From positions 14,026 through 78,025 of the forward strand of contig JAPOXA010000082.1 in the NCBI GenBank assembly GCA_026707325.1: 64,000 bases of DNA, written 5' to 3'. A program made the translations under genes and the position numbers. The notes below the pieces were generated by a model that was not told the DNA's origin, did no database searches, and worked only from the letters and a program-made list of their open reading frames with translations. The number at the start of each line of letters is the position of its first letter. Within the stretch, counting starts at the first letter, position 1. This DNA comes from Acidobacteriota bacterium (GTDB lineage Bacteria > Acidobacteriota > Thermoanaerobaculia > Multivoradales > Multivoraceae). Below, in pieces: positions 10,925 to 58,367 of the stretch.

Positions 10925-10948
10925 TCGCCGGCATCGTAGCGCGGCTGG

Positions 10949-11734: not shown

Positions 11735-11774
11735 AGCGGTCGTCGTGCCCGCTGCGGCAGGACGGGAGATGCCG

Positions 11775-12614: not shown

Positions 12615-12651
12615 GCAGGCGCCCTCCAGGGCAAGCCGTCGCCTTGCACCA

Positions 12652-44159: not shown

Positions 44160-47100
44160 GTGCCGCTTCCAATGAACCCGCCCCTGCCGCCCGAAGAAGG
44201 CCAGGTCCTGACCGGGCCTCAGTTCAGCGAACCCATGCGCGTGGTGACCGCGGCGGGCAACGGCCTCGGAGGCTGGAAACTCGGTCTGGTCGGCACTCGG
44301 ACCCAGCTCTTTCGGCAGGTGTCGCTCGACGACGCGCAACTCTCCGAACTGACTGCGACCGACGGCGCCTTCCGCTACGACGGCGACGGCGGGCTCCTCC
44401 GGCTCGGCCTCGATGCCCACGCGCTCGGCATCGCCTGGGAGTTCGACCCGTACTTCGGACTGTCGGTGTCCCGGGTCGACCCGCTACCGCACCAGCTTGA
44501 AGCCGTCTACGACCACCTCCTCAAACCGGCGCGAGTGCGGTTCCTGCTGGCCGACGACGCGGGCGCCGGCAAGACGATCATGTCCGGCCTGCTCCTTCGC
44601 GAGCTCCAGTTGCGCGGCCTTGCCGAACGCACTCTGATCGTGGCCCCGTCCAACCTGACGTTCCAGTGGCAGCGGGAGTTGCGCGAGAAGTTCGAGCAGA
44701 GCTTCGTCGTGCTGAAGGGCGCCGAGCTGCGCGCCCAGTATGGCGTCAACCAGTGGATGGACCGCAACCGGATCATCACCTCGCTCGACTTGGCGAAGCG
44801 CGACGAGATCCTCCCCGGCCTGAAGCAGGCGCGCTGGGACCTGGTCATTGTCGACGAGGCGCACCGAATGTCGGCACGCGACGAGTCCCACAAGAGCCTG
44901 CGCTACAAGCTCGGCGAACTGCTTCGCGACACCTGCGACCACCTGTTGCTGCTGACAGCGACGCCGCACAAGGGCGACCCGGAGAACTTCTCCCTCTTCC
45001 TCCAGCTTCTCGACCGCGACGCCTACGCGAACGTGACCTCCATCCGCCACGCACTGCACCATGGCTACGCGCCGTTCTACCTCCGCCGCACGAAGGAGGC
45101 GATGGTCCACTTCCCGCAGCGCGACGCGAACGGCGAGTGGGTCGTGCGGCCGATCTTCACGCGGCGCATCCCCAGCACCGCGGGTTTCTCCATCGAGGGC
45201 GCCGAGCACGATCTGTACCGGGAAGTCACCGAGTTCGTGAAGCGGCAGAGCAGGCTGGCGGCCGAACGCGACGATCCACGGGGCCGCGCCATGGGCTTCC
45301 TGATGGCCCTCTACCAGCGCCGCCTGGCGTCCAGCACCCGTGCCCTCTTCCGCAGTCTGTGCAACCGGGCGGAGCGGCTCGAACAGGCGCTTGCGAAGGC
45401 GCACGATCTGGCCAGCGGCGCGCCGTCCGATCTGCCGAGCATCGACGACCTCGAAGACCTTGAGGAGATGGAAGAACAGGAACGCGAGCGCGTACTGGAA
45501 CTCATCGAGGCCATCTCCCTGACGGACAACGCGGACGCGATCCGCGAGGAGGTCGCGGAGCTGCGCGCGCTCGCCCTCCGCGCCGAGGCGGTCGAAGGGC
45601 AGGGGGTCGAGGCGAAGCTCACCAGACTCGAGCGGCTCCTGCGAAGAGACGGCTTCTTCGATCGCCCGGACCAGCGCCTGGTGCTGTTCACCGAGTTCAA
45701 GGACACGCTGGACTACCTGGTCGAGAAGCTGCGCGGCTGGGGCTTCCGGGTCGCCACCATTCACGGCGGCATGAAGCCAGGCAGCCGCGACGAGCCGGGC
45801 ACCAGGCTGCACGCAGAGCAGCAGTTCCGTGAAGGCGCGGTGCAGGTGCTCGCAGCCACGGAAGCGGCCGGCGAGGGGATCAACCTGCAGGTCTGCAACG
45901 TGCTCTTCAACTACGACATCCCGTGGAACCCGAACCGACTTGAACAGCGGATGGGGCGCATCCACCGCTACGGGCAGGAGAAGGACTGCCTGATCTTCAA
46001 CTTCGTCGCCACCAACACCGTCGAGGGGCACGTCCTGGAGCGCCTGCTCGAAAAGCTGAAGGAGATTCGCAACGCGCTCGACGACGACGCCGTGTTCAAC
46101 GTGGTCGGCCAAGTGCTTCCGGCGTCCCGGATGGAGCGGCTCCTCCGCGACTACTACGCGGGACGTCTCGGCCAAGAAGACCTGGAAGAGCGCATGCTGC
46201 GGCCCGTGGAAGAGTCGCGCTTCCGCGACATCTGCCGGAACGCCCTGGAGGGCCTTGCCTCTAAGAAGCTGAACCTGGAGATGCTCGTCGAACGCCGCGC
46301 CCGGGCCCGCGAACGTCGCGTGGTCCCGGAGACCATCGCCCGCTTCCTTCGTGAAGCCGCGCCGCGGACAGGTCTCGACCTTCGCTTCCTTCGCGGCGTG
46401 AAACTGCGGCATGCGTTCGAGCCCGGTCGGACACCCGCTGGCCTGCGCCGGTACCAGCGCGACGAGGACTGGCGGTTGGCCGACCTCGCCACGCGCTATC
46501 CCCGCTGCAGTACCGACCGCGACACTGCCCGAAACCACAACCTCGAGTGGGTCACGCCCGGCCATCCGCTGTTCGAAGCAGTGCGCAGGCATACCCGCGA
46601 CGAGGCGGCTGACCCGCTACGAAGCGGCGCCACGTTCCACTCCCTGGATCACGTGGAACCCTCGCGCATCGACTTCTACCGGGCCCAAGTCATCGACGGG
46701 ATGGGCTCCGTGGTCCAGGAGAAGCTGCTCGCCGTGGAGCTCGGCGCAGGCGGCGGCGAGCACCTGGAGCGCCGCGAACCCGGCGTTCTCGGCAACCTGA
46801 CGCCAGCCCCGGCGCCCGAGGAGCTTCCGGCCGTCACCTTCGCGCCCGCTCCCGAAACCTGGCTACACGAACAGGTGCTACGCCCTTGGCTCGAGAAGAC
46901 CCGTGCCGAACGCGACGCCGAGGTGGAGCGTGTCGTCGACCACGTGCAGCGGTCCCTCACAGAGCTCCTGAACCGGGCGGATGACGAGATTGGCCGCGCC
47001 GCGCTCGAGGTGGAGGCCGGGCGCCGTGGCGCGGAGGGCCGGTTGAAGAGAGCCGAACTCCGGCACGACGAACTGTCCGCCCGCCGCACGCGCCGACTCG

Positions 47101-47603
47101 AGGAACTGGAACGCCAGCGCTCCCTCACCCTCCAGGGCGTCGAGCGGATCACCAGCGTTCTCGTTCTACCGCACCCGGAACGCGGCGCTGCTGACGTCAA
47201 GCGTCATCGGCCGGATCCGGCGACCGAGATGACCGCCATGCGCGTGGTGATAGAGCACGAAGAGGCCGAAGGGCGGCGCACGGAGGATGTGAGCGCGAAG
47301 AACCTCGGCTACGACGTCACCAGCCTCGACCCGAACTCCGGCGATCTACGCCTCATCGAGGTCAAGGGCCTGGCCGCCAGGAGCGGCACCATCCTGCTGA
47401 CGCCGAACGAGCGCCGCGTAGCCGAGGACCGTCCGGATTGCTACTGGCTGTACGTCGTCACCGACTGCGCTACCACGCCGGTTCTCCGGGACCCGGTCCG
47501 GAACCCGGCGCGGAAACCGTGGGTCGAGGTAAAGAAGGTGCAGCACTACTATCTCGACGTTGAGAAGCTGAGCGCCGCGCCCGACCAACGGAGCGACCGG
47601 TGA
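44160..47603 (+). CDS. SNF2-family helicase with C-terminal DUF3883-like PD-(D/E)xK nuclease-fold domain
   Basis: Motif I is LLADDAGAGKT, motif II is VIVDEAHRMS and motif VI is QRMGRIHRYGQ. The C-terminus reads GYDVTSLDPNSGDLRLIEVKG...YWLYVV. The start is GTG at 44160 or ATG at 44172. TACAAT at 44154-44159 abuts the start. Confidence 0.88.
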   Translation: MPLPMNPPLPPEEGQVLTGPQFSEPMRVVTAAGNGLGGWKLGLVGTRTQLFRQVSLDDAQLSELTATDGAFRYDGDGGLLRLGLDAHALGIAWEFDPYFGLSVSRVDPLPHQLEAVYDHLLKPARVRFLLADDAGAGKTIMSGLLLRELQLRGLAERTLIVAPSNLTFQWQRELREKFEQSFVVLKGAELRAQYGVNQWMDRNRIITSLDLAKRDEILPGLKQARWDLVIVDEAHRMSARDESHKSLRYKLGELLRDTCDHLLLLTATPHKGDPENFSLFLQLLDRDAYANVTSIRHALHHGYAPFYLRRTKEAMVHFPQRDANGEWVVRPIFTRRIPSTAGFSIEGAEHDLYREVTEFVKRQSRLAAERDDPRGRAMGFLMALYQRRLASSTRALFRSLCNRAERLEQALAKAHDLASGAPSDLPSIDDLEDLEEMEEQERERVLELIEAISLTDNADAIREEVAELRALALRAEAVEGQGVEAKLTRLERLLRRDGFFDRPDQRLVLFTEFKDTLDYLVEKLRGWGFRVATIHGGMKPGSRDEPGTRLHAEQQFREGAVQVLAATEAAGEGINLQVCNVLFNYDIPWNPNRLEQRMGRIHRYGQEKDCLIFNFVATNTVEGHVLERLLEKLKEIRNALDDDAVFNVVGQVLPASRMERLLRDYYAGRLGQEDLEERMLRPVEESRFRDICRNALEGLASKKLNLEMLVERRARARERRVVPETIARFLREAAPRTGLDLRFLRGVKLRHAFEPGRTPAGLRRYQRDEDWRLADLATRYPRCSTDRDTARNHNLEWVTPGHPLFEAVRRHTRDEAADPLRSGATFHSLDHVEPSRIDFYRAQVIDGMGSVVQEKLLAVELGAGGGEHLERREPGVLGNLTPAPAPEELPAVTFAPAPETWLHEQVLRPWLEKTRAERDAEVERVVDHVQRSLTELLNRADDEIGRAALEVEAGRRGAEGRLKRAELRHDELSARRTRRLEELERQRSLTLQGVERITSVLVLPHPERGAADVKRHRPDPATEMTAMRVVIEHEEAEGRRTEDVSAKNLGYDVTSLDPNSGDLRLIEVKGLAARSGTILLTPNERRVAEDRPDCYWLYVVTDCATTPVLRDPVRNPARKPWVEVKKVQHYYLDVEKLSAAPDQRSDR

Positions 47604-47666
47604 GTCGATCCCCGGGCGCGAGATTCGTCACACCGAAGCCCATGCCACCGGTGGATGGAGATCCGA

Positions 47667-48263
47667 ATGCCTGACACGAGACAAGTCCACGAGCTGCTGG
47701 CACAGATCGACCGCGGCGAGATCCTCCTGCCCGAGTTCCAGCGCGGCTACGTCTGGCGACGCGACCAGGTTCGCGGGCTGGTGCAGTCCATGTACCGGCG
47801 GCACCCGACCGGGCATCTGTTGATCTGGAAGACCTACAAGCCGTCCAAGGTGCGCGGCGCCAAGGCGTCAGAGGAAGGAAGTTCCCTTCTACTGCTCGAC
47901 GGCCAGCAACGGCTGACCTCGCTCTACACCCTCTTCGAAGGCAAGCCACCGCCGTTCTACGAGGGCGAGTCCCTCTTCTTCGACCTCCACTTCAACGTGC
48001 AGACCCAAGAGTTTCGCTTCTACCAGAAGTCGCAGATGCTCAACAATCCGGCTTGGGTCAGCGTTCACGACTTTCTGGGACAGGGCCTTGGGACCTTCGT
48101 CAGCGGCCTTCACACCATGGCGAAGGAGCGCCGGGAAACGCTGGAACCGAACCTGGCACGGCTCGCCGACCTCGATGGCATCCGCAACTACACCTACGCC
48201 GTCGACCATGTCTCCGACGAGGACTACACCGTCGAGGAATCGTCGGCATCTTCAACCGCGTGA
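47667..48263 (+). pseudogene. DUF262 (GmrSD N-terminal, ParB-like) domain, 5' fragment of a frameshifted gene
   Basis: The ATG at 47667 has GGAGA 5 nt upstream; an alternative ATG is at 47655. Family blocks are LLPEFQRGYVW and LLDGQQRLTSL. This frame ends at 48263, but the homology continues in the -1 frame from about 48236. Confidence 0.8.
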
Positions 48264-49780
48264 ACAGCGCCGGAACGCCGCTGACCAAGGCGGACCTGGC
48301 GATCGCGCATATCTGCAGCCTGTGGCCCGAGGCGCGTGGCGAGTTCCGCGCTTTCAGCGCGAAACTGGGAGACAACGGCTTCCCGTTCGACCTCGACTTT
48401 CTCGTCCGCTGCCTGGCCGGAGTTGCGACCGGGTCCGTTCTGCTCGAAGGGTCCTTTCTGCGAACCCCAGCCGAAACGCTCCAGAAGGGCTGGGCACGGC
48501 TTCAGCCAGCGCTCGAGCACCTGGTGGGCGTGCTGCGCCACGAAGCGCTGGTCTCCAGCCCGCGCGACCTGCCGACGACGACCATGCTCATACCAGCGAC
48601 CGTGTACCTCGCGCGGCAGGGCGGTCGGTTTCCCAGCGAGGCCATCCGCCGCCGGTTCATCCGCTGGATGTTCCTCGCCGCCTTGTGGGCCCGCTACTCC
48701 GGCTCCGCCGAGACCAAGCTCCAGCAGGACGTGGCCCTGGTCGCAAACGGTGACCCGGATCCGGTCCCCGAACTGGAAGCGGCCATCCTTCGCGAGCGCG
48801 GCCGCGTCGTCCTGGAAGAGGGCGACCTCGACCGGGCGACTGTCATTTCCGCCGTCGCCTATCTGGTGCGCATAGTCGCACGGCACCGAAACGCCCGCGA
48901 CTGGTTCACCGGTGTCCACGTCTACGACCGCGCTACAGGTCGAAGCGCCGGCGGGGAACGACACCACGTCTTCCCGAAGAAGATCCTGGAGCAGGCCGGC
49001 ATGACGGACACCCGGCGCATCAACGCTGTGGCGAACCGCGTTCTCCTGACCCGGAAGCCCCCCCTGGAGATCCGCAAGTCCTCTCCCGCGGACTATCTGC
49101 CCCACGTGCATGAGACCCAGCCCGACGCCCTGCGAGCCCAGTCCGTCCCGTTAGACCCGGAACTGTGGGAACCGGAGAACTTCCTCGACTTCCTGGCCGC
49201 GCGGCGCGGGTTGCTGGCCGAAGCAGCCAACGAGTTCATCGCCTCCTGGCTGCCGCCCAAGGGCGCCGACCCGCACAGCGAGCAGTACGTCCGGGAGCTC
49301 ATCGCAAGCGGCGAGAGCGACGCACTGGAGTTCAAGTCCAGCCTGCGCTGGGACCTAACCGAACAGCGAGTGAACAAGACGGTCGAACTCATGACGATCA
49401 AGAGCGTGGCCGGCTTCCTGAACAACGACGGCGGCACCCTGCTGATCGGCGTCGGCGACGACGGAGAGCCTCTCGGCCTTCAGCGCGACTTCGAGACCCT
49501 GAGCAAGAAGCCCGATCGCGACGGTTTCGAACTCCACCTACAGCAGCTCTTCATCCGGACCTTCGGCGAGGCGACCGCCTCGTCCTTCCTCACCGTGAAC
49601 TTCCACCAGATCGACGGCCGAAACATCTGCCAGGTGACGGTGGAGCCAAGCGATCATCCGGTCTATGTAGAGCAGAAGGGCCAGCAGGCAGCGTTCTGGC
49701 TGCGCGTGGGCAACGCGACGCGGTCCCTGCCGATCAACGAGGCGGTGCGCCACATCCAGACCCGCTGGAGCGGCAGGTGA
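48236..49780 (+). pseudogene. 3' fragment: remainder of DUF262, DUF1524/HNH-like region and C-terminal AlbA_2 (Schlafen-type) domain
   Basis: GIVGIFNRVNSAGTPLTKADL completes DUF262. The HNH-like block is ERHHVFPKKIL...NAVANRVLL. The AlbA_2-like block is ESDALEFKSSL...VAGFLNNDGGTLLIGVGDDGEPLG. Confidence 0.8.
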
Positions 49781-49799
49781 GCCGGCCGGAAGCGGGCTG

Positions 49800-50444
49800 A
49801 TGGCGCCCCCAGATCGCCTTACCCGCCACGCCCAGGAGAGAATCGGCGACCGGCTGTCAACGGCGCCCGACGAGGTGGCCGCGATCCTCGATCACGATCT
49901 TGCAGTTCTCCTGGGCACGGACTCCGGACGCCTTCACCGCTTGTTCTTCAGCCCTGCCGATGAGCAGTGCTTCGTAGCGGTTCAGGACCAAGAGAAGGGA
50001 GATGTCGTCACGATTCTCCCGCTTGACTACCACTCGTCGCTGGCATGGGAGGTCCCCCTTGAAGCGCAGGAAAGGGCCGAGCTCTTGCTGCTGGGCTCGA
50101 AGCGCTCTGCCGCGCAGGCGGCTGAGAGAGAGGAGCCGCCATCTGACCCGGAGCCTCCCAACGCCACCACGACCGGTGGTGAGTCGGCTGGCTCGGGCAC
50201 GTTTCGTATTCGCTGCTACGTCCTCACACCAGACGGTCAGATACGTGGTCGGGGTCTGGGCTCGATGCCTCTTGCCAGGGTGGGTGGCGATCTTTCCGTC
50301 GTCCCCAAGTTCGACGACGTACTGGCGGAGATTCGTCAACGCGTCGAAGAGACTCTTCAGCAGGATGAGATGCTTGAACTTGTGTTTGTCACCCGGCGCG
50401 ACGAGACGGTAACCATCGACGACTCCAGGCGATGGGGTCGATGA
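49800..50444 (+). CDS. Hypothetical protein (two small globular halves joined by a Pro/Glu/Thr linker)
   Basis: The ATG is 20 nt after the preceding stop, on the same strand, with good GC3 bias. The N-terminus RLTRHAQERIGDRLS...DVVTILPL weakly recalls DUF4258-type small toxins. No confident family assignment is possible. Confidence 0.55.
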   Translation: MAPPDRLTRHAQERIGDRLSTAPDEVAAILDHDLAVLLGTDSGRLHRLFFSPADEQCFVAVQDQEKGDVVTILPLDYHSSLAWEVPLEAQERAELLLLGSKRSAAQAAEREEPPSDPEPPNATTTGGESAGSGTFRIRCYVLTPDGQIRGRGLGSMPLARVGGDLSVVPKFDDVLAEIRQRVEETLQQDEMLELVFVTRRDETVTIDDSRRWGR

Positions 50445-50508
50445 GGCGGTCTCGGGCCGAAGCGCTTTCGAGGGCCGAGGCGGTCGTTCGCTGTGCGGAG
50501 GACAACCT

Positions 50509-51423
50509 GTGACGGCCTCTGGAATCCCCCGCGAGTGCAGGCGCCTAGCGGAGGTCGACTTCCCCATCGCCGAGGTGTCGAGGCACGCGGCCCGCGAGAA
50601 GTCGATCCGGCATGGCCACCCCTCCACTCTCCACCTGTGGTGGGCTCGGCGGCCTCTGGCATCGAGCCGGGCGGTACTCCTCGCCCTACTCCTGCCTGAC
50701 CCGTGCGACGAGCACTGCCCAGAGGAGTTCAAGCGCCGGGCGCGCGAGTTCCTGAGCCCGGTTCGGCAACCGCCAAAGACTGACGTCGAACTCAGAAAGG
50801 CGCTGCTCTGGTTCATCGGCTCGTTCGCCAACTGGGACATGGCCGCCCACAAGACCTACTTGCAGGTGGGCCGGAATCTGGTGCGAGCGGCCCACGGCGG
50901 AGACGATCCGCCCCTGGTGGTCGACCCGTTCGCCGGCGGCGGCTCCATCCCCCTGGAGGCCCTCCGCCTCGGCTGCGACGCCTTCGCCTCGGACCTGAAC
51001 CCGGTCGCCTGCCTGATTCTCAAGGTGATGCTGGAGGACATTCCGCGCCACGGCCCGGGTCTGGCCGACGAACTCCGTCGCGTCGGCGGCGAGATCAAGG
51101 CGGCGGCCCAGCAGGAACTGGCCGACCTCTACCCGCCCGACCCGGACGGCGCCACGCCCATCGCCTACCTCTGGGCGCGCACGGTGCGCTGCGAGGCGCC
51201 GAACTGCGGCGCGGAGATCCCGCTGATGCGCTCGTTCTGGCTGTGCAGGAAGCCGAAGCGCAAGTGGGCCCTCCGGCCGACGGTCGTGCGTCGGACCGCG
51301 TCGACCGGGCACTCGACTGGCGGCCCCGGATCTGCTAAGGCTACCCAGAGCCCAGAGCCCAGAGCCCAGAGCCCAGAGCCCAGAGCCCAGAGCCGAGTTC
51401 GAGATCTACGAGCCGCGTGCTGA
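50509..51423 (+). CDS. DUF1156 adenine-specific DNA methyltransferase, N-terminal part (frame broken at heptanucleotide repeat)
   Basis: The GTG start has GGAGGA 7 nt upstream. The DUF1156 block is EVDFPIAEVSRHAAREKSIRHGHPSTLHLWWARRP. SAM motif I is VVDPFAGGGSIPLEA. The first Zn-knuckle is CEAPNC. The frame runs through the repeat and stops at 51423. Confidence 0.88.
   Translation: MTASGIPRECRRLAEVDFPIAEVSRHAAREKSIRHGHPSTLHLWWARRPLASSRAVLLALLLPDPCDEHCPEEFKRRAREFLSPVRQPPKTDVELRKALLWFIGSFANWDMAAHKTYLQVGRNLVRAAHGGDDPPLVVDPFAGGGSIPLEALRLGCDAFASDLNPVACLILKVMLEDIPRHGPGLADELRRVGGEIKAAAQQELADLYPPDPDGATPIAYLWARTVRCEAPNCGAEIPLMRSFWLCRKPKRKWALRPTVVRRTASTGHSTGGPGSAKATQSPEPRAQSPEPRAQSRVRDLRAAC
51344..51392 (+). 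repeat. Perfect tandem heptanucleotide repeat (CCCAGAG)x7 inside the methyltransferase gene
   Basis: Seven uninterrupted 7-nt units were read directly from the sequence. Three units make 21 nt and encode PEPRAQS in every phase. The two halves of the methyltransferase lie in different frames on either side. Confidence 0.97.
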
Positions 51424-53575
51424 CGAAGACGTAGCCGCCGGAACCGTCTCCCGCGCCCGGGCCACCTGCCTCTGCTGCGGCTCGGTGTTGCCGCCGGAGC
51501 GCGTCCGGGCGCAACTCTCGGCACAGCGTGGCGGCGCCGACGCCGTGTTCGACGAGGCCGGGAACCGCGTGGGCGGCGCGCGGCTGACCGCTGTGGTCAC
51601 CGTGCGGCCCGACGAGAAAGGGCGACACTACCGTCTGCCTACCGAAGAAGACTATGCGGCAGTGTACCGGGCACAAGAACTGGTGGCGGGTTCGTTGAGC
51701 GAGTGGGAGCGCGACGGCAAGCAGAATCTGTGCCCGGTGCCGGATGAGCCGCTACCGCCGGTCGGGACACTGGGCTTCCGCGTGCAGCGCTACGGCATGG
51801 CGCGGTGGGGCGACTTGTTCACGGCGAGGCAGAAGGCCACGTCGAACGGACTCGTCGACTTGCTGCTAAGGGCTAAGTGCCGAGTGCCCGATCAGGAACG
51901 ACTACTGGCCTGCTCCTTCAGTCGTATTGCGATGAGCAACATGTCCTGCACTCGATGGAACGCGGTCGCGGAGAAGATGCAGCACACCTTCGGGCGGCAA
52001 GCGCTGCCTATCGTCTGGGACTTCGCCGAAGTGGTCGTCACGGCCCCGGGGCCCGGAAACTGGGAGAGCGCCTACCGGCTGCCCAGTGACATTGTAGAGG
52101 CCGCATGTAGTCCAGAGCCTGGCCAAGTCCAACCCGCCGACGCCACCAACCACCCACTCCCAGACGAGACCGTCGGTGTCTGGTTCACCGACCCGCCCTA
52201 CTACGACGCCATCCCCTACTCGGACCTCTCCGACTTCTTTCTGGTCTGGCTGAAGCGCACTCTCCCGGGCCACCCGCTGCTTCGCGACCCGTTCGACTCG
52301 ACCAACCCGCTGTCGCCGAAGGCGGCCGAGGCGGTGCAGGACGAGACCAAGGAGGTCGACGGGCGCCCCAAGGACCGGGCGTGGTTCGAGGAGACGATGG
52401 CCCGCGCGTTCGCGGAGGGCCGGCGACTCCTGCGCCAGGACGGCGTCGGCGCCCTCGTCTTCGCCCACAAGACGACGGAGGGCTGGGAGGCGCTGCTCTC
52501 CGGGATGATCCGCGGCGGCTGGACCGTCACCGCGTCCTGGCCGCTCGCGACCGAGATGGGCTCCCGTCTGCGCGCTCGGGATTCCGCCGCTCTCGCGACC
52601 TCCATCCACCTGGTCTGCCGCCCCCGGCCCGAGGACGCGCCGGTCGGCGACTGGGCCGAGGTGCTCCGCAAGTTGCCCGTCCGCGTCGGCGACTGGATGG
52701 AGCGGCTGCAGGGCGAGGGCATTCGCGGCGCGGACCTGGTCTTTGCCTGCATCGGACCTGCCCTGGAGATCTTCAGCCGCTACTCGCGGGTCGAGATGGC
52801 GGACGGCAGTGAGGTGGGCCTGCCCGCATACCTGGAGAAGGTCTGGGAGGTGGTGGGCCGCACGGCGCTCGAGAACGTGCTGGGCGCGGCCGAGGCGAAG
52901 GCGCGAAACGGACTCGCCGGGGCGCTGGAAGAAGACGCTCGGCTGACCGCCCTGTTCCTGTGGACGCTGCAAACGACCTCCGCAGCCGACGACGGGGAGG
53001 GCACGAAAAAGGGCGGAAGTCCGCCAGAAACGGACCAACAACCGAGCGGTGTCGGCGCGAAGGGCTACTCACTGGCCTTCGACGTCGCGCGACGCTTCGC
53101 CCAGCCGCTCGGCATTGACCTGCCGAAGTGGGAGAAACGCATCGTCGAGACCAAGAAGGGCGTAGTCCGCCTGCTGCCCGTGTCCGAACGGGCGAAGCGC
53201 CTGTTCGGGGAAGGCGGCTCGGCGGCAGTGGCCAAGGCGCTGGAGCAACCGGGTGGGGCTCAACGCGACCTGTTCGCAGGAACCGCGGTGCAAGCAAGCG
53301 AACTCGCCGCGACACGAGGCGGCTTCCGCTCGTCGGCCGACGACCCGGACGCCGGCGCCGCCCCGGAGGAAGGCGCCACCACGCTCGATCGCGTCCACAC
53401 CGCGATGCTGCTACAGGCTGGCGGCCTCACCCATGCTTTGCGCAACCTTGTCGCCGCCGAACGGGAACGCAGCCCCGACTTCGAGCGCCTGGCGAACGCC
53501 CTCTCCGCGCTCTACCCGCGCGGCAGCGAAGAGAAACGACTGTTGGACGCCATGTTGCTCGTATCTCCCAGATAG
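51395..53575 (+). CDS. DUF1156 adenine-specific DNA methyltransferase, C-terminal part
   Basis: This frame is open from 51227. Homology resumes right after the repeat (EFEIYEPRADEDVAAGTVSRARATCLCCGSV, the second Zn-knuckle). Catalytic motif IV is FTDPPYYD. The first in-frame start codon is only GTG at 51485, so independent translation is unlikely. Confidence 0.85.
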   Translation, partial: EFEIYEPRADEDVAAGTVSRARATCLCCGSVLPPERVRAQLSAQRGGADAVFDEAGNRVGGARLTAVVTVRPDEKGRHYRLPTEEDYAAVYRAQELVAGSLSEWERDGKQNLCPVPDEPLPPVGTLGFRVQRYGMARWGDLFTARQKATSNGLVDLLLRAKCRVPDQERLLACSFSRIAMSNMSCTRWNAVAEKMQHTFGRQALPIVWDFAEVVVTAPGPGNWESAYRLPSDIVEAACSPEPGQVQPADATNHPLPDETVGVWFTDPPYYDAIPYSDLSDFFLVWLKRTLPGHPLLRDPFDSTNPLSPKAAEAVQDETKEVDGRPKDRAWFEETMARAFAEGRRLLRQDGVGALVFAHKTTEGWEALLSGMIRGGWTVTASWPLATEMGSRLRARDSAALATSIHLVCRPRPEDAPVGDWAEVLRKLPVRVGDWMERLQGEGIRGADLVFACIGPALEIFSRYSRVEMADGSEVGLPAYLEKVWEVVGRTALENVLGAAEAKARNGLAGALEEDARLTALFLWTLQTTSAADDGEGTKKGGSPPETDQQPSGVGAKGYSLAFDVARRFAQPLGIDLPKWEKRIVETKKGVVRLLPVSERAKRLFGEGGSAAVAKALEQPGGAQRDLFAGTAVQASELAATRGGFRSSADDPDAGAAPEEGATTLDRVHTAMLLQAGGLTHALRNLVAAERERSPDFERLANALSALYPRGSEEKRLLDAMLLVSPR

Positions 53576-53618
53576 CAAACAAGGCGAGAATCTGCCCGCT
53601 GAACATCCTGGAGAACCC

Positions 53619-56432
53619 ATGGCATCAGAACCCTGGTACAAGGTCGTCCAACCGCGGCGCGAGGTCCGGCAGGGCCGCTCGTTCAACCCGGACGAGTTCG
53701 CGATCGCGCTGGAGCAGGTCGTAGCAGGCACCGCGCCCGAGGACTACCGCGATGCCGAGGCGTTCTTCGCCCGTACGTGCTTCACGCGGGCACTGCGGGA
53801 ACACACAGCGATGGTCCTCCGGCGGCTCAGCGGAGAGACAGTGAACGCTGCGCCGGTGACGACCCTGGTAACCCAGTTCGGCGGCGGCAAGACTCACGCC
53901 CTGGCGTCGCTCTACCACCTGGTGCGGTCACCGGAGAAAGCGGAGAGCGTCGCCGAAGTAGGCAGCCTGTTGCAGGAGATCGGGCTGACCGAGATCCCAC
54001 ATGCTCGGGCGGGAGTGTTCGTCGGCAACGCCTGGGACCCGGGAGAGGGGCGCGAGACGCCGTGGATCGACCTGGCCCGGCAGCTTTCGGGCAGCGACGG
54101 TGTCGCCTGCCTCGGGCCTGCCGCCCGGACCACGCCGCCCGGTACCGAGGCGCTCGGCCGGGTGTTCCAGGCCGCCGGCAGGCCGGTCCTCCTGCTGTTC
54201 GACGAAGTACTCAACTTCGTCAACCGCCATCGCAGTATGGCCGACGCGTTTCACGCGTTCCTTCAGAACCTCACCGTTGCAATGACCGGCGCCACCCACG
54301 GTGCCGCGGTGATCAGCCTGCCGCGAAGCCAGGTCGAGATGACCGACTTCGACCTCATCTGGCAGGACCGGATCACCAAGGTCGTTCGCCGCGTGGCAAA
54401 GGACCTGATTGCCAACGACGAAGCGGAAGTCAGCGAGGTCGTTCGCCGTCGCCTGTTTGAATCGGATGGCGCTGAGCGTGTGCAAAGAAGGGTCTCGAAG
54501 GCTTACGCCGACTGGTGCTTCGAGCGCCGCGAGCGGCTGCCGCCCGAGTGGACGCTGGTGGACAGCACCACGGAGAAGAAAGCCCGCGAACACCTGCGGT
54601 CCCGCTTCGAAGCGTGTTACCCGTTTCACCCCGCCACCCTCTCCGTCTTCCAGCGCAAGTGGAACGCCCTGCCGCAGTTCCAGCAGACTCGCGGCACGCT
54701 CGCCATGCTGGCTCAGTGGGTTTCCTGGGCGCAGCGCGACGGCTACAGGGAAGCCCGGACCGAACCGCTGATTACCCTCGGGTCGGCGCCGCTGCACGAT
54801 CCGCACTTCGTGGCCGTCGTGCTCGGGCAACTCGGCGAGCCCAGGCTCGCCGGTGCCATCGACGTGGACATCGCCGGCGAACGGGCCCACGCCCGGGGAC
54901 TCGACCGGGATACGAAGGGACCGCTCCGCTCGATTCACCGACGCGTGGGCGCCGCGATCCTGTTCGAGTCGTCCGGCGGCCAGGTCGACAAGACGGCGCA
55001 CCTGCCGGAACTCCGGTTCGCGCTCGGCGAGCCGAACGTGGACACGACGTCGGTCGACTCAGCGGCTCTGGATCTCGAGCGGCGCGGCTACTTCGTTCGC
55101 CGGGTGGGAGGCGGCTTCCGCGTTCACCACCAGCCGACGATCCGCAAGGTGGTGAGCGACCGCCGAGCCGCACTGGACGAGCAGGACGAGATCCGACCGG
55201 CTGTACGCAACCTGGTGAAGGAGGAGTTCGACCGCCGCGCCGCGATTCCCCGGGTGTTCTTTCCTGAAGACGGCGCCGCGGTGCCGGATTCACAGAAGCT
55301 GACCCTCGTTGTCATCGACCCGGAAGCTGCGTGGACGGGCGAAGACGCAAGCGATCTGCGTGGGCGGATCGTCCGGTGGACCCGCGAGCGCGGCAGTGCG
55401 CCCCGCCTGTATCCCGGCGCTCTGATCTGGGCCGTCAAGAAGCCCGGCCGCGAACTCCGCGACCGGGTGGAGCAGTGGCTGGCCTGGAAGCGCGTCGACG
55501 AAGAGGTCCGGGGCGGCACGCTGGGCGCGGAGATCGACGGCTCCGAAAGAGCCGCCCTCGCCAAGAACCTGCGCGACGCCGAGCACGCGGCAAAAGAGGA
55601 GGTGGGGGGCGCCTACCGCTTCCTCCTCTATGCGGACGGCGCCGAGCCGGACCGCATCGCGGTCATCGACCTGGGCGCGGGCCACTCCGGCAGTGCCGAC
55701 AGCCTTTGCGGACGCGCACTGGCGGCGCTCCGGTCGCGCGGCCTGCTGAACGACTCGGTGGGTGCCAGCTACGTCGAGCGCAACTGGCCGCCAGCCAACA
55801 GCGAGACTGGCGCATGGCCTCTGTCGATGCTGCGAAAGTGCTTCCTCGACGGGTCGCTCACCCGGTTGATCGACCCGGAGGCGGTCCTGCGAAGCAGCAT
55901 CGTCGAGTGGGTCGCGGATGGCGAGTTCGGGCTCAGCTCGGGCGGCGACGGTGAAGGCTTGCTGTATGTGCCGGAGCGTGTCTGGTACCGGGAGCCCGTT
56001 CCTCCCGAGGAGGTCATGTTCGATCCAGATATCTGCCTGCTGAAGAGGAAGGTCGCCGAACGGCTGCAAGCGGCTGAAGGCGAACCGCAGAGCGACCGGG
56101 AGATGGAACAGCACAAGGGCCAGGGCTTCGAGCTTGCCGTCGGCGGACCGTCCGAAGCGGTCGGTAGCTCGACACCGGTCGAACCGGAGGGCGCGACGAG
56201 CACTGTGCGGCTACGCCTGGAAGGCGAGATCCCGTCGGGCGCCTGGAACCGCGTTGGCCTCAAGCTGCTGCCAAGGCTGCGGGCCACCGCCAACCGCGAC
56301 CTGACCGCATACGTCCGGCTGGAGGCGGCAACCGACGGCGCCGCCGCCGACGCCCTCGTCAGGGACCTCCGGCGCGCGTTGGACGACCTGAATCTCGCCG
56401 ACCACGTCCGCATTGAGAGCGAGCCGGACTAG
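53619..56432 (+). CDS. DUF499 domain ATPase (COG1483-like)
   Basis: The ATG at 53619 has GGAGA upstream. The N-terminus MASEPWYKVVQPRREV...FARTCFTRAL is typical. The P-loop is TQFGGGKTHALASLYHL. The track N-terminal extension to 53253 overlaps the methyltransferase 3' end. Confidence 0.85.
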   Translation: MASEPWYKVVQPRREVRQGRSFNPDEFAIALEQVVAGTAPEDYRDAEAFFARTCFTRALREHTAMVLRRLSGETVNAAPVTTLVTQFGGGKTHALASLYHLVRSPEKAESVAEVGSLLQEIGLTEIPHARAGVFVGNAWDPGEGRETPWIDLARQLSGSDGVACLGPAARTTPPGTEALGRVFQAAGRPVLLLFDEVLNFVNRHRSMADAFHAFLQNLTVAMTGATHGAAVISLPRSQVEMTDFDLIWQDRITKVVRRVAKDLIANDEAEVSEVVRRRLFESDGAERVQRRVSKAYADWCFERRERLPPEWTLVDSTTEKKAREHLRSRFEACYPFHPATLSVFQRKWNALPQFQQTRGTLAMLAQWVSWAQRDGYREARTEPLITLGSAPLHDPHFVAVVLGQLGEPRLAGAIDVDIAGERAHARGLDRDTKGPLRSIHRRVGAAILFESSGGQVDKTAHLPELRFALGEPNVDTTSVDSAALDLERRGYFVRRVGGGFRVHHQPTIRKVVSDRRAALDEQDEIRPAVRNLVKEEFDRRAAIPRVFFPEDGAAVPDSQKLTLVVIDPEAAWTGEDASDLRGRIVRWTRERGSAPRLYPGALIWAVKKPGRELRDRVEQWLAWKRVDEEVRGGTLGAEIDGSERAALAKNLRDAEHAAKEEVGGAYRFLLYADGAEPDRIAVIDLGAGHSGSADSLCGRALAALRSRGLLNDSVGASYVERNWPPANSETGAWPLSMLRKCFLDGSLTRLIDPEAVLRSSIVEWVADGEFGLSSGGDGEGLLYVPERVWYREPVPPEEVMFDPDICLLKRKVAERLQAAEGEPQSDREMEQHKGQGFELAVGGPSEAVGSSTPVEPEGATSTVRLRLEGEIPSGAWNRVGLKLLPRLRATANRDLTAYVRLEAATDGAAADALVRDLRRALDDLNLADHVRIESEPD

Positions 56433-56607: not shown

Positions 56608-56811
56608 CTACGGAAGCAGCCGGTCCAACACCGTCACGATCGTGGCGAAGCCGCCCATGGCGAGCAGGATGCGCCACGTGAGGGCCTCCCTCAGGTTGGC
56701 CAGGTCCTCCTTCGTCGCAACGTGGCGGAGCGTCTCGTCGACGCGAGCCCGCCAGGCAATCCAGTCTTCATTGAGTGCCGGGAAGTCGGTTTTCGATTCT
56801 GTGGCAGGCAT
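56608..56811 (-). CDS. Small hypothetical protein with C-terminal transmembrane anchor
   Basis: The ATG at 56811 has GGAGAA 8 nt upstream. The 67-aa protein has a helical segment (TKEDLANLREAL) followed by WRILLAMGGFATIVTVL. Local GC is lower than the surroundings (32/60 in the first 60 nt by hand count). Confidence 0.45.
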   Translation of the reverse strand: MPATESKTDFPALNEDWIAWRARVDETLRHVATKEDLANLREALTWRILLAMGGFATIVTVLDRLLP

Positions 56812-56885: not shown

Positions 56886-58367
56886 TCACGCGCCGCGCTG
56901 CACGGTGGCATGAACGTCCTCGAACTCCGCCGCCGCCCCTTCGGGCGGTTTCGTCCACAAGCTGACGATCACCGTCGCCGCCAGGCCGGCGATGAGCCCC
57001 GGGATCAGCTCGTACAGGTCGTAGTACGACGCCTTGAACCACACGACCCAGGCCACCGTCACCGCGAATCCTGCCGCTATCCCGGCCAGCGCCCCCGGCA
57101 GCGTCGTCCGCTTCCAGAACAGCGAACACAGGACGACGGGAACGAAGGCGCCGCCCAGGCCGGACCAGGCAAACAGCATGAACCAGAACAGCAAGGGCGG
57201 TTCGGACAGGGCGAAGGGGATGGCCACCAGGCCCACGAGCGCGGTGACGAACTTCCCGTAGCGCGACAGGCGCCCCCCGCCACGCGCCGCACCGAGGATC
57301 TTCTGTCCGAAATCCCGCACCACCGAAGACGAGGCGAGGATCAACAGGGAATCGACCGTCGACATGATCGCGCCCAGAACGATGACCAGGAAGATGCCGG
57401 TGAAAAGGGCCGGGAACAGTTCCGCGCTCATCGTCGGCATCACGGTCTCCGGATCGTCCAGCAACGGGAACAGGGCCCGTCCAGCGATCCCGGTGAACAC
57501 GGCACCGACGTCGAACAGGACCATGCACACGACCGCGACCCGGCCGCCCCGCACGAGTTCGCGGCCCGAGGCCGCGGACATGAACCGGGTCAGGAGCTGC
57601 GGAACGCCCAGAAAGGCGAGGCCGATGCCGGCGAAGCTCGCCGCCGAAAGCACGCCGGCCCAGGTCGCGCCGTGGCTGCCCATCGCGCGCAACAGGTCGG
57701 GATCGGCCGCCTGGAGCGCGCCGATCACCTCGTGCCAACCGCCCGCGGCCGCGACGCCAACGATCGGGAGCATGACGAGCCCGCCCACCATGAGCAGTCC
57801 CTGCACCAGATCCGAGTAGGCCACCGCCTTGAAGCCGCCGACCGCCGTGTAGACGATCGTGACGCCCGCGCCCAGGAACACGCCGTGGACGTAGCTGAAC
57901 CCCAGGAAGGACGAGAAGGCCTTGCCCGTCGCCACCAGTTGGGCGCAGCAGTAGACCGCGACCATCGACAGGATGATCGCGATGCTCAGCTTGCGCAGGA
58001 GCTGCCGGCGGTCCCGGAACCGCTCCTCCAGGTAGTCGGGAACGGTGATCGCCCGGTACCGGTCGGTGTACTCCTTGAACGGCCGGGAGACCAGGGTCCA
58101 GGCGATCGCAACGCCCATCACTTCGCCGAACACGACCCAGAGCGCGTGGAAGCCGACCGCGTAGCCCATCCCTGTCAGGCCGAGCAGCAGCCAGCCGCTC
58201 TCGCCGGTGGCGTTCGAACTGAAGGCGATGACCCAGGAGGGCAGCTTCTTGCCGGCCACGTAGTAGCCCTCCAGGCTCCCTCCCTCGCGCCGGCCCCACA
58301 GGCCGAGCCCGATGAGGACCAGCATGTAGAGCCCCAGGGGGACGAGAACCAGCGCGCTAGCCGTCAC
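56886..58367 (-). CDS. Sodium:solute symporter family (SSF, PutP-like) transporter
   Basis: It has a GTG start and about 12-13 TM segments. N-terminal family blocks are YYVAGKKLPSWVIAFSSNATGESGWLLLGLTG. Confidence 0.85.
   Translation of the reverse strand: MTASALVLVPLGLYMLVLIGLGLWGRREGGSLEGYYVAGKKLPSWVIAFSSNATGESGWLLLGLTGMGYAVGFHALWVVFGEVMGVAIAWTLVSRPFKEYTDRYRAITVPDYLEERFRDRRQLLRKLSIAIILSMVAVYCCAQLVATGKAFSSFLGFSYVHGVFLGAGVTIVYTAVGGFKAVAYSDLVQGLLMVGGLVMLPIVGVAAAGGWHEVIGALQAADPDLLRAMGSHGATWAGVLSAASFAGIGLAFLGVPQLLTRFMSAASGRELVRGGRVAVVCMVLFDVGAVFTGIAGRALFPLLDDPETVMPTMSAELFPALFTGIFLVIVLGAIMSTVDSLLILASSSVVRDFGQKILGAARGGGRLSRYGKFVTALVGLVAIPFALSEPPLLFWFMLFAWSGLGGAFVPVVLCSLFWKRTTLPGALAGIAAGFAVTVAWVVWFKASYYDLYELIPGLIAGLAATVIVSLWTKPPEGAAAEFEDVHATVQRGA

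What the first reader, a model, noticed from the sequence alone, without database searches (positions are those of the whole stretch)
44160..56432. Defence island built on the uncharacterised DUF1156 methylase / DUF499 ATPase / SNF2-DUF3883 helicase triad, with two nested extra genes
All genes are co-directional and closely spaced. The order is: SNF2 helicase with a nuclease-fold tail (44160-47603), a DUF262-HNH-AlbA_2 gene (47667-49780), an orphan ORF (49800-50444), a DUF1156 Zn-ribbon adenine methyltransferase (50509-53575), and a DUF499 P-loop ATPase (53619-56432). The methylase-ATPase-helicase combination (COG1743/COG1483/COG0553-type) was flagged in comparative-genomic surveys of defence islands as a putative new RM-like system. 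To my knowledge it has no established mechanism, recognition rules or name. The flanks are ordinary genes: an M14 peptidase on the left and an SSF symporter on the right. No integrase or direct repeats were seen. Both the methylase and the nested nuclease gene are interrupted in this sequence.
Basis: partly seen in the sequence, partly recalled or inferred. Interest (0 to 1): 0.8.

Follow-up and report, generated by a model that had tools for sequence, protein, structure and literature searches.

The report
Known Hma defence locus, repeat-switched methylase
This is an ordinary member of the already named Hma (BREX-related type 1) anti-phage system with nested extra genes, but its methylase gene is broken exactly at a 7-base tandem repeat whose length differs between assemblies, which looks like a reversible on/off switch.

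Summary
Five co-directional genes lie at the stated coordinates, the family assignments are confirmed, the flanks are housekeeping genes, and two genes are interrupted.

The triad is the Hma system (PADLOC, 2021), also called the Type-1 BREX-Related system (2026). HmaA has been shown to defend against phage T4. Genes nested inside Hma, including GmrSD/BrxU-like 'HEC-05', are a published phenomenon.

It sits at a perfect (CCCAGAG)x7.3 repeat at 51344-51394, and removing one unit restores a 1019-aa ORF. Contigs 100% identical elsewhere carry at least 8.9, 13.4 and 14.6 units. Sister lineages carry 8-base repeats at the same codon position, with 12.9 units (in frame) and 17.4, 19.9 and 6.4 units (out of frame). 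The sequence downstream of the repeat is under purifying selection (dN/dS 0.12-0.27).

I read this as repeat-driven phase variation of the Hma methyltransferase in a Thermoanaerobaculia clade. This is a new variant of two known things. The frame state in this particular assembly may be an assembler collapse. The GmrSD-AlbA_2 gene carries a separate, fixed 1-nt deletion. The 214-aa gene remains unassigned.

The parts
44172..47603 (+). hmaA: SNF2-family helicase with a C-terminal NOV_C/PD-(D/E)xK nuclease domain. It is intact. The ORF opens at GTG 44160, and gene callers start it at 44172.
   Evidence: PADLOC HmaA 5.7e-172 over profile positions 54-1130 of 1176. Pfam SNF2-rel_dom, Helicase_C and NOV_C. 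Motifs seen: GAGKT at 135, DEAH at 232, QRMGRIHRYGQ at 596, and D1052...E1067-V-K1069. Called as 1143 aa in sister contigs.
47667..49780 (+). Nested gene 1: a GmrSD_N (DUF262) - HNH-like - AlbA_2 protein related to HEC-05/BrxU. It is split into fragments of 198 and 506 aa by a 1-nt deletion between 48235 and 48236.
   Evidence: The repaired protein restores GmrSD_N positions 1-197 of 199. The motifs DGQQR 82-86, H437, N457 and N461 are conserved in 117-119 of 119 family members. The nearest solved structure is BrxU 7p9k at E 4.5e-13. The same split is seen in contigs L082, L085 and L086, and L087 carries the deleted sequence.
49800..50444 (+). Nested gene 2: a 214-aa protein with two domains and a disordered linker, belonging to an unannotated family.
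   Evidence: No hit in Pfam, PADLOC, NCBIfam or PHROGs. 18 close homologue clusters and 843 representatives at E<=0.001 with a profile. AlphaFold2 pLDDT 71, with no fold match in PDB or BFVD. Two family members give sub-threshold DUF4258 hits.
50509..53575 (+). hmaB: DUF1156 N6-adenine-type DNA methyltransferase. In this assembly it is read in two frames: 50509-51423, then from the repeat to 53575.
   Evidence: Pfam DUF1156; PADLOC HmaB on both halves. Deleting one 7-nt unit gives a 1019-aa ORF with no internal stop. DPFAGGGS at 139 and TDPPYY at 558 are invariant or nearly so in 119 homologues. The Cys residues C228, C233, C318 and C321 are invariant.
51344..51394 (+). Perfect heptanucleotide simple-sequence repeat (CCCAGAG)x7.3 inside hmaB, between the two Cys pairs of the zinc ribbon. 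This is the point of frame change and the candidate phase-variation switch.
   Evidence: TRF score 102 with 100% matches, the best array in the 64 kb window. No matches in 100 shuffles. It is the only perfect repeat of 4 or more units in the window. Tract length differs in otherwise identical contigs. Sister lineages carry 8-nt repeats at the same site.
53619..56432 (+). hmaC: DUF499 AAA+ (BrxC-like) ATPase of 937 aa. It is intact and has no N-terminal HEPN fusion.
   Evidence: PADLOC HmaC 9.3e-90, with the profile match starting at position 3. Pfam DUF499. GGGKT at 88-92 and LLLFDE at 191-196.
41461..44115 (-). Left flank: M14 zinc carboxypeptidase, transcribed divergently from hmaA.
   Evidence: Pfam Peptidase_M14. 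It is also the neighbour upstream of the hma locus in L007, L027, L089, L091, L092, L093 and L094.
56886..58367 (-). Right flank: SSF sodium:solute symporter, followed by a PD40/M28/PDZ peptidase at 58607-61486 (+).
   Evidence: Pfam SSF 8.8e-78 and Peptidase_M28. The same neighbours occur in L081, L089 and L091-L095.

Best explanation
The locus is a chromosomal Hma system, also called a Type-1 BREX-Related system, in a Thermoanaerobaculia-like acidobacterium. Two further genes are embedded between hmaA and hmaB.

Proposed working of the core, from the literature and domain content rather than shown here:
- HmaB methylates adenine in a host motif. The motif is probably set by a variable segment of about 100-150 aa.
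- HmaC, a BrxC/ORC-like AAA+ ATPase, assembles or licenses the complex on DNA.
- HmaA translocates as an SNF2 motor and nicks unmodified invader DNA with its PD-(D/E)xK domain.

What the sequences add: hmaB carries a hypermutable simple-sequence repeat whose unit length is not a multiple of three. The repeat lies in a loop between the two Cys pairs of a conserved zinc ribbon. It is downstream of the AdoMet-binding motif and upstream of the catalytic DPPY motif. Slipped-strand gain or loss of units shifts the frame, so one tract length in three gives full-length HmaB (ON). The other two give a truncated product of about 300 aa that lacks the catalytic motif (OFF). The window shows an OFF length, one unit away from ON.

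Inference: OFF alleles coexist with intact hmaA and hmaC in four lineages, so loss of HmaB must be tolerated. This suggests HmaB is also needed to target restriction, as PglX is in BREX and Mod is in Type III systems. On that reading the switch turns the whole system off and on.

The embedded GmrSD-AlbA_2 gene is inactivated by an unrelated 1-nt deletion. The embedded 214-aa gene has no known function.
For: Identity as Hma: PADLOC and Pfam hits. Synteny holds across the 80 related loci: hmaB lies downstream of hmaA in 59 loci and hmaC downstream of hmaB in 34, the rest being limited by contig ends. More than 400 nt is inserted between hmaA and hmaB in 55 of those 59 loci. The literature covers the system and the embedding.

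The switch:
- The frame break coincides with (CCCAGAG)x7.3, and removing one unit restores 1019 aa.
- Contigs L081-L087 are 100.0% identical to the window over every shared segment, yet show at least 8.9, 13.4 and 14.6 units, and assemblies break at the tract.
- Orthologues carry 8-nt repeats at the same site: L088 12.9 units, in frame, 1043 aa; L093 17.4, L091 19.9 and L092 6.4 units, all out of frame. Each of these is restored by changing only the unit number.
- Non-triplet repeats occur almost nowhere else in 95 loci.
- dN/dS downstream of the repeat is 0.12-0.27, including OFF-OFF pairs.
- The inter-Cys segment is 60 aa in 101 of 119 homologues but 84-107 aa in repeat-bearing alleles.
- The repeat-encoded segment is modelled as a disordered loop between better-modelled strands (the global model is poor).

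Precedents: a G tract in pglX phase-varies Pgl/BREX-2. The published criteria for repeat-driven phase-variable methyltransferase genes are met.
Against: No read-level or single-culture data show switching.

All sequences come from metagenome assemblies, where repeats are error-prone. The window's 51-nt tract could be a collapsed version of a much longer one, so its OFF state is not secure.

The 100%-identical contigs may derive partly from the same raw data.

Five of six resolved repeat-bearing alleles are OFF, against an expectation of about four of six. One of them (L094/L095) has a second frameshift and a truncated hmaA, so some loci are simply decaying.

The same strain also carries a fixed frameshift in the nested nuclease gene, which fits general erosion.

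Methyltransferase activity, the motif, and any requirement of HmaB for restriction are untested. In Halomonas, HmaA alone defended and HmaB had no measurable effect on T4.
Confidence: 0.7

Rival explanations
1. Assembly artefact. The organism's hmaB is intact, or its state is unknowable. The frame break in this window arises because a short-read assembler collapsed a repeat tract longer than its k-mer to 7.3 units.
For: In the same strain, MEGAHIT k141 contigs end inside the tract after at least 13.4 units and start with at least 14.6 units that include a CCCTGAG variant. If both ends describe one allele, the tract has at least 25 units. A scaffold has an N gap in the tract, and Logan contigs stop after about 4 units.
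Against: This does not remove the repeat itself, which is present in every assembly. Fully bridged tracts on long contigs in sister lineages (L091, 374 kb contig, 19.9 units; L093, 17.4 units) are also out of frame, while L088 is in frame. This rival concerns only the state in this window and is compatible with the switch.
Confidence: 0.3
2. Plain decay. The Hma locus of this strain is eroding. The repeat is a neutral, slippage-prone insertion in a tolerant loop, and the OFF alleles are pseudogenes on their way out rather than a selected switch.
For: The nested nuclease gene has an ordinary fixed frameshift. L094/L095 have a second hmaB frameshift and a truncated hmaA. Most resolved repeat alleles are OFF. 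HmaA alone can defend, and 15-20% of HmaA-encoding genomes lack hmaB or hmaC.
Against: Four OFF alleles have no other defect across 3 kb and are restored by a change of one or two units. dN/dS downstream of the break is 0.12-0.27 even between OFF alleles. Perfect, uninterrupted tracts of different unit sequence persist at the same codon position in lineages 10-14% diverged. An ON allele exists.
Confidence: 0.2
3. The nested genes are not independent passengers. They are integrated auxiliary or back-up effectors of the Hma/BR machinery, as proposed for nucleases embedded in BREX and BR loci.
For: A full-length GmrSD_N-AlbA_2 gene sits directly after hmaA in 9 of the 80 related loci and in all clade loci. 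Rakesh and Krishnan argue for recurrent functional integration.
Against: HEC-05/BrxU-type proteins defend on their own. The cargo at this position is swapped freely between close relatives, for example ORF214 versus MNT-HEPN pairs versus ABC-ATPase pairs. The gene is dead in this strain while hmaA and hmaC stay intact. Distant ORF214 relatives lie in non-defence contexts.
Confidence: 0.25
4. One reading: an unnamed, undescribed new restriction-modification-like system.
For: The methylation motif and the complete mechanism are indeed still unknown.
Against: The system is named, modelled in PADLOC, surveyed in 1,485-2,446 systems or taxa, and partly tested experimentally.
Confidence: 0.03

Closest known systems
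Hma system (Payne et al. 2021, PADLOC), also called the Type-1 BREX-Related (BR) system (Rakesh and Krishnan 2026)
   Same: Same three proteins in the same order and strand: SNF2 + NOV_C/PD-(D/E)xK helicase-nuclease, DUF1156 N6-methyltransferase, and DUF499 AAA+ ATPase. There is no DUF3780 gene and no PLD/HKD helicase. Genes are embedded between the hma genes.
   Different: hmaB is out of frame in this assembly at a simple-sequence repeat. No repeat or phase variation is mentioned in the Hma/BR papers searched. HmaC lacks the HEPN fusion found in about half of Type-1 BR systems.
Hma-embedded candidates HEC-05 / BrxU / GmrSD type IV restriction enzymes (Payne et al. 2024; Picton et al. 2021; PDB 7p9k)
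   Same: An N-terminal DUF262 domain with DGQQR, a helical linker, a C-terminal H...N...N nuclease motif, and a position nested inside Hma.
   Different: It carries an extra C-terminal AlbA_2 (Schlafen-type) domain of about 130 aa. This is a large, conserved family of about 700 aa: 3706 hits at E<=1e-20, and the listed full-length ones combine GmrSD_N with AlbA_2. Pfam DUF1524 is not detected. The gene is frameshifted here.
Phase variation of Pgl (BREX type 2) through a G tract in the methyltransferase gene pglX of Streptomyces coelicolor
   Same: A hypermutable repeat inside the methyltransferase gene of a BREX-family defence system switches it on and off.
   Different: That case is a mononucleotide tract of 7-8 G with switching shown experimentally. 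This case has 7- and 8-nt units in tracts of 6 to 20 or more copies, inferred only from allele comparison in uncultured Acidobacteriota.
Repeat-driven phase-variable Type III mod and Type I hsdM/hsdS genes (phasevarions)
   Same: A non-triplet repeat lies inside the ORF. Tract length varies across conserved alleles. ON and OFF alleles both exist. An allelic variable (TRD-like) segment is present.
   Different: The enzyme family and system are different (DUF1156/Hma). The hosts are free-living environmental bacteria, and the units are unusually long. No regulon or methylome evidence exists.

Membership tests
Hma / Type-1 BR system | HmaA: SNF2 helicase core with a C-terminal NOV_C PD-(D/E)xK nuclease | tested here: met
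   PADLOC HmaA 5.7e-172. Pfam SNF2-rel_dom, Helicase_C and NOV_C. Helicase motifs I, II and VI and D...ExK are present.
Hma / Type-1 BR system | HmaB: methyltransferase with an N-terminal DUF1156 domain and N6-type motifs | tested here: met
   Pfam DUF1156 2.9e-23. PADLOC HmaB on both halves. FxGxG and DPPY are conserved.
Hma / Type-1 BR system | HmaC: DUF499 AAA+ ATPase | tested here: met
   PADLOC HmaC 9.3e-90 and Pfam DUF499 6.9e-11. Walker A and B motifs are present.
Hma / Type-1 BR system | All three genes on one strand with at most three embedded genes between neighbours (PADLOC/Payne rule) | tested here: met
   Two genes lie between hmaA and hmaB and none between hmaB and hmaC.
Hma / Type-1 BR system | No hma gene is a pseudogene (curation rule of Payne 2024) | tested here: not met
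   hmaB is split at the repeat in this assembly. A change of one unit restores it. This affects detection by curated pipelines, not homology.
Hma / Type-1 BR system | Type-1 rather than Type-2 or Type-3 BR: no DUF3780 gene, no N-terminal HKD/PLD on the helicase, no PglZ | tested here: met
   No such domains appear in any ORF of the locus. The PADLOC PLD_Helicase and DUF1156_MTase/DUF499 (type-2) models score far below the Hma models. NCBIfam type-2 models fall below their cut-offs.
Hma / Type-1 BR system | Anti-phage activity and site-specific self-methylation | not testable with these tools
   Only literature on a Halomonas homologue is available.
GmrSD/BrxU-like (HEC-05) nucleases | DUF262 (GmrSD_N) domain with the DGQQR motif | tested here: met
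   GmrSD_N 2.8e-28 over positions 1-197 of 199 in the repaired protein. DGQQR is invariant in 119 of 119.
GmrSD/BrxU-like (HEC-05) nucleases | C-terminal DUF1524 / HNH (His-Me finger) nuclease domain | tested here: inconclusive
   Pfam PF07510 is not detected at E<=1. The PADLOC HEC-05 model aligns through its C-terminal part at 6e-19. H437, N457 and N461 are conserved.
GmrSD/BrxU-like (HEC-05) nucleases | Intact single ORF | tested here: not met
   There is a 1-nt deletion relative to L007 and L001. The split is also seen in sister contigs.
Repeat-driven phase-variable DNA methyltransferase genes | The repeat lies inside the ORF, its unit is not a multiple of three, and it has at least 3 units (Atack 2019 criteria) | tested here: met
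   7-nt unit x7.3 in the window; 8-nt units x6.4-19.9 in sister alleles.
Repeat-driven phase-variable DNA methyltransferase genes | Tract length varies among otherwise conserved alleles, and both ON and OFF lengths are observed | tested here: met
   12.9 (ON), 17.4 and 19.9 (OFF) units of the same octamer. 7.3 versus at least 8.9 and 13.4 units in contigs 100% identical elsewhere.
Repeat-driven phase-variable DNA methyltransferase genes | Reversible switching within a clonal population, with matching methylation change | not testable with these tools
   This needs reads, fragment analysis or a culture. Indirect support comes from dN/dS of 0.12-0.27 downstream of the break.

The most novel reading that the evidence does not exclude
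A whole clade of free-living Thermoanaerobaculia has kept, through 10-14% sequence divergence, a contingency locus in the Hma methyltransferase. Very long hepta- or octanucleotide tracts (6 to 20 or more units) lie at one fixed loop of a zinc ribbon, combined with swapped specificity-like segments. If this is real switching, it would be the first repeat-driven phase-variable Hma/BREX-related system. It would also give natural genetic evidence that HmaB-OFF is tolerated alongside intact HmaA and HmaC, meaning the methylase is the specificity subunit of restriction and not merely the antidote. A further possibility is a methylation-dependent regulon in an environmental bacterium.
Probability: 0.5. 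Interest if true: 0.6.

Novelty: new variant of a known kind. Interest (0 to 1): 0.42.

Why it matters
The triad itself adds nothing new: it is one more Hma locus with embedded cargo.

The repeat in hmaB matters for three reasons. First, surveys that discard loci with pseudogenes, as the Hma embedding study did, will systematically miss switched-off alleles. Second, it extends repeat-driven methyltransferase switching beyond Type I/III systems and the Pgl G tract, and beyond host-adapted pathogens, to a BREX-related system in soil or sediment-type bacteria. Third, it bears on an open question for Hma/BR systems, namely what HmaB and HmaC do when HmaA alone can defend. Naturally occurring ON and OFF alleles next to intact hmaA and hmaC allow a direct test of whether the methylase is required for restriction, and of which motif it writes.

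Tried and rejected
- Exact-pattern scans for the left junction of the window's repeat found nothing in JGI metagenome contigs or in GTDB species genomes. The junction of the sister 8-nt repeat found only the same JGI contig again. No extra tract-length alleles came from those collections.
- For ORF214 I tried Pfam, PADLOC, NCBIfam and PHROGs. I made an AlphaFold2 model (pLDDT 71) and ran Foldseek against PDB and BFVD, with no match at E<=0.001. A profile search enlarged the family but gave no name. Pfam on distant members gave only two sub-threshold DUF4258 hits. Contexts of distant members were uninformative, with an H-NOX neighbour.
- The AlphaFold2 model of the ON-allele HmaB (P0003) was poor (mean pLDDT 50.8). 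I used it only for the local observation that the repeat-encoded segment is unstructured.
- I looked for mobile-element signatures (direct repeats, tRNA, integrase), promoters or terminators, and Rfam families. Nothing was informative.
- I considered sequencing error for the nuclease-gene frameshift. I rejected it because the same deleted sequence appears in assemblies from at least two run series (SRR and ERR accessions).
- I considered programmed ribosomal frameshifting at the repeat. Nothing supports it, and tract-length differences explain the data.
- I considered that the repeat might be a general feature of hmaB. I rejected this because it is absent from 80 loci of other lineages and from 118 of the 119 close full-length homologues (P0003 is the exception).
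Full report
**Observation.** The window has about 69% G+C. It carries five co-directional, closely spaced ORFs on the + strand at the stated positions. Pfam and PADLOC confirm the assignments:

| Coordinates | Assignment | Key evidence |
|---|---|---|
| 44160/44172-47603 | SNF2 helicase with a NOV_C (former DUF3883) nuclease tail | PADLOC HmaA 5.7e-172 |
| 47667-48263 + 48260-49780 | GmrSD_N (DUF262) fragment + AlbA_2-bearing fragment | both match PADLOC HEC-05 |
| 49800-50444 | no family hit | none |
| 50509-51423 + 51485-53575 | the two halves of a DUF1156 methyltransferase | PADLOC HmaB 1e-46 and 1e-58 |
| 53619-56432 | DUF499 ATPase | PADLOC HmaC 9.3e-90 |

The flanks are an M14 peptidase and an SSF symporter. 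There is no tRNA, integrase or flanking direct repeat. The catalytic motifs are present. HmaA has GAGKT, DEAH, QRMGRIHRYGQ and D1052...E1067-x-K1069. HmaC has GGGKT and LLLFDE. HmaB has DPFAGGGS and TDPPYY, invariant or nearly so in 119 homologues. The one weak point is DUF1524: Pfam does not detect it even in the repaired protein. The HEC-05 model and a conserved H437...N457...N461 motif still support an HNH-type nuclease.

**What the locus is.**
- It is the Hma system, named in the PADLOC paper as a helicase-methylase-ATPase operon found 1,638 times in 26 phyla (PMC8565338).
- Rakesh and Krishnan (PMC12839542) re-describe it as the Type-1 'BREX-Related' system. They trace earlier sightings to 2013 and 2020 and assign it an RM-like logic.
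- This locus fits Type-1. The helicase has a C-terminal PD-(D/E)xK domain, there is no DUF3780 gene and no HKD/PLD helicase, and the type-2 models score far lower.
- Liu et al. (PMC11232893) showed that Halomonas HmaA alone protects E. coli from T4. Protection needs helicase motif VI and the nuclease glutamate. HmaA is not toxic, and HmaB had no measurable effect.
- Payne et al. (bioRxiv 10.1101/2024.01.29.577857) showed that 62.7% of 1,485 Hma systems contain embedded genes. They tested GmrSD-like embedded candidates: HEC-05 (BrxU) and HEC-06.

It remains true that the recognition motif and mechanism are unknown.

**Relatives.**
- A scan of one genome per species returned 80 loci from many phyla encoding an HmaA that is 64-95% identical. 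The best are Thermoanaerobaculia MAGs at 93-95%; the source genome itself is not in that collection.
- The order hmaA, hmaB, hmaC is general. More than 400 nt is inserted between hmaA and hmaB in 55 of 59 loci, and between hmaB and hmaC in 27 of 34.
- The nested gene of about 700 aa (GmrSD_N - HNH-like - AlbA_2) follows hmaA in nine of the 80 loci. It belongs to a large conserved family: 3706 hits at E<=1e-20, and the listed full-length ones combine GmrSD_N with AlbA_2. The closest solved structure is BrxU 7p9k at E 4.5e-13.
- Close relatives of the window's organism keep one or both of the same housekeeping flanks (L007, L089, L091-L095). Their cargo differs: MNT-HEPN pairs instead of ORF214, ABC-ATPase pairs between hmaB and hmaC in L089, and a TIR/SEFIR gene before hmaA in L093. 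This is a vertically kept locus with exchangeable nested cargo, not a recently integrated island.

**The two interruptions have different causes.** The nuclease gene lacks one base between 48235 and 48236 compared with the intact orthologues in L007 and L001. The window reads GTCGA-GGAATCGTC where the orthologues read GTSGACGAAGTYGTC. The same deleted sequence is present in contigs from other assemblies of the same strain. It is therefore a fixed inactivating mutation.

The hmaB break is different. It lies exactly at a perfect heptanucleotide tandem repeat, (CCCAGAG)x7.3, at 51344-51394. This is the best-scoring tandem repeat in the window and the only perfect repeat of four or more units. It has no matches in 100 shuffles. 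All three frames read PEPRAQS through it with no stop codon. Deleting one unit, or adding two, gives a single 1019-aa ORF.

**Evidence that the repeat is a switch.**

(i) Contigs L081-L087 come from two ENA assemblies and three Logan run assemblies. They are 100.0% identical to the window in every shared segment from the M14 gene to the downstream peptidase. Their tract differs or is unresolved:
- at least 8.9 units, then an N gap (L082);
- a k141 contig ending after at least 13.4 units (L085);
- its partner contig starting with at least 14.6 units that include one CCCTGAG variant (L081). If both ends describe one allele, the tract has at least 25 units.

(ii) The 90%-identity cluster of the window's 304-aa N-terminal fragment contains four other truncated N-fragments of different lengths, three of them ending in repeated peptides.

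(iii) Their DNA shows perfect octanucleotide repeats at the same position, between homologous flanks ...ATCTGCTA... and ...GTCGAGTTCGAG...:

| Locus | Repeat unit | Units | Frame state |
|---|---|---|---|
| L088 | GACGCTCG | 12.9 | in frame, 1043 aa |
| L093 | same octamer | 17.4 | out of frame; restored by one unit |
| L091 | same octamer | 19.9 | out of frame; restored by one unit |
| L092 | GGAAGCTC | 6.4 | out of frame; restored by two units |
| L094/L095 | AGACGATC | 4.25 | out of frame, plus a second frameshift downstream |

(iv) Non-triplet repeats occur almost nowhere else in 95 loci. Among 119 close full-length homologues, only the L088 protein has such a repeat.

(v) The repeat lies between two invariant Cys pairs (C228/C233 and C318/C321). 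The distance between these pairs is 60 aa in 101 of 119 homologues, but 84 and 107 aa in the repeat-bearing alleles.

(vi) dN/dS of the 2.2 kb downstream of the repeat is 0.12-0.27 for all pairs, including OFF versus OFF. That part has stayed under purifying selection and so has been translated over evolutionary time.

(vii) A variable segment of 100-150 aa is swapped between alleles. It is 29-43% identical where the flanks are mostly 74-100% identical, reminiscent of the allelic recognition domains of phase-variable mod genes.

**Precedents.** The tract meets the published operational criteria for repeat-driven phase-variable methyltransferase genes: a non-triplet unit, at least 3 units, and a tract-length range across conserved alleles (PMC7383803). 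The nearest precedent within the BREX family is the G tract in pglX, which phase-varies Pgl in Streptomyces coelicolor (PMC4365076). The Hma/BR papers I searched mention no repeat or phase variation. The embedding study excluded loci containing pseudogenes, so OFF alleles would have been filtered out.

**Mechanism, with status of each step.**
- Shown by sequence: the repeat unit is not a multiple of three. It sits after the AdoMet-binding motif (residue 139) and before DPPY (residue 558). Two of every three tract lengths therefore truncate the protein at about 300 aa without its catalytic motif.
- Inferred from allele comparison: tract length changes faster than point substitutions, and both ON and OFF lengths exist.
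- Inferred from literature and domains: HmaB methylates self DNA. HmaC, a BrxC-like AAA+ ATPase, assembles or licenses the complex. HmaA translocates and nicks unmodified DNA.
- Inferred: OFF hmaB coexists with intact hmaA and hmaC in four lineages, and Halomonas HmaA is non-toxic on its own. OFF is therefore tolerated, which suggests that HmaB is needed for targeted restriction, as PglX and Mod are. The repeat would then toggle the whole system.

**Caveats.**
- Everything rests on metagenome assemblies.
- The window's 51-nt tract may be a collapsed version of a longer tract, so the OFF state in this window is not secure.
- The identical contigs may share raw data.
- One allele (L094/L095, which also has a truncated hmaA) is truly decaying.
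- The HmaB structure model was too poor (pLDDT 50.8) to say more than that the repeat-encoded segment is unstructured.

**ORF214.** It is conserved at the same position in L007 (73% identity) and L089. A profile search finds 843 cluster representatives at E<=0.001, so it is not an orphan. It has no family name and no fold match. It gives only sub-threshold DUF4258 hints. Distant members lie in non-defence contexts. I leave its function open.

**Verdict.** The finding as written describes a known system, so it is one more member of a known kind. The added result, a clade-wide hypermutable repeat in hmaB, makes it a new variant of two known things: Hma/BR systems and repeat-driven phase-variable methyltransferases. 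It is of moderate interest and directly testable.

Noticed in passing
L088:4721-4823; L091:10841-10999; L093:10840-10978; L092:9568-9618; L094:10849-10882: Perfect octanucleotide repeats (GACGCTCG x12.9, x19.9, x17.4; GGAAGCTC x6.4; AGACGATC x4.25) lie at the same hmaB codon position as the window's heptanucleotide repeat. One allele is in frame and the others are out of frame.
   Followed up: yes
HmaB alignment columns ~500-600 (about residues 470-560 of the repaired window protein; window ~51900-52200): A segment of 100-150 aa is swapped between alleles. It is 29-43% identical to L088, L091 and L092, while the flanks are mostly 74-100% identical. This looks like an allelic target-recognition-type region.
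   Followed up: partly
L089:13280-16927; L093:2184-3545; L088/L091-L094 between the GmrSD gene and hmaB: The nested cargo differs between close relatives that share one or both chromosomal flanks. L089 has two ABC-ATPase (AAA_15/AAA_21) plus small-protein pairs between hmaB and hmaC. L093 has a TIR/SEFIR gene upstream of hmaA. Other loci have MNT-HEPN pairs in place of ORF214.
   Followed up: partly
L094:3883-6366 and 10001-13090: In this relative, hmaA is truncated to 827 aa and lacks the SNF2 N-lobe. hmaB has a second frameshift besides the repeat. This locus appears to be truly decaying.
   Followed up: partly
L035:10001-15010 and L070:10001-15051 (Spirochaetia MAGs): The HmaA match spans about 5 kb in two or three pieces instead of 3.4 kb. 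This suggests an insertion of about 1.6 kb inside hmaA (intein, intron or insertion sequence).
   Followed up: no
L040:16688-16720: A perfect (TGGGGCGG)x4.1 octanucleotide repeat lies downstream of hmaA in a Longimicrobiales locus where only a fragment of hmaB is detectable.
   Followed up: no
window 56608-56811 (-): A conserved 67-aa ORF with no family hit lies between hmaC and the SSF gene. It is also called in L081, L082 and L083. A 67-aa ORF with no family hit is also called near the SSF gene in L089, L092 and L094. Some relatives have an HTH_3 gene, or an HTH_3 plus HigB-like pair, at this position.
   Followed up: no
window 9078-9171 (+): ARAGORN reports an odd 'tRNA-???' with a two-base anticodon. 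Rfam finds no RNA family anywhere in the window, so this is probably a false positive.
   Followed up: no
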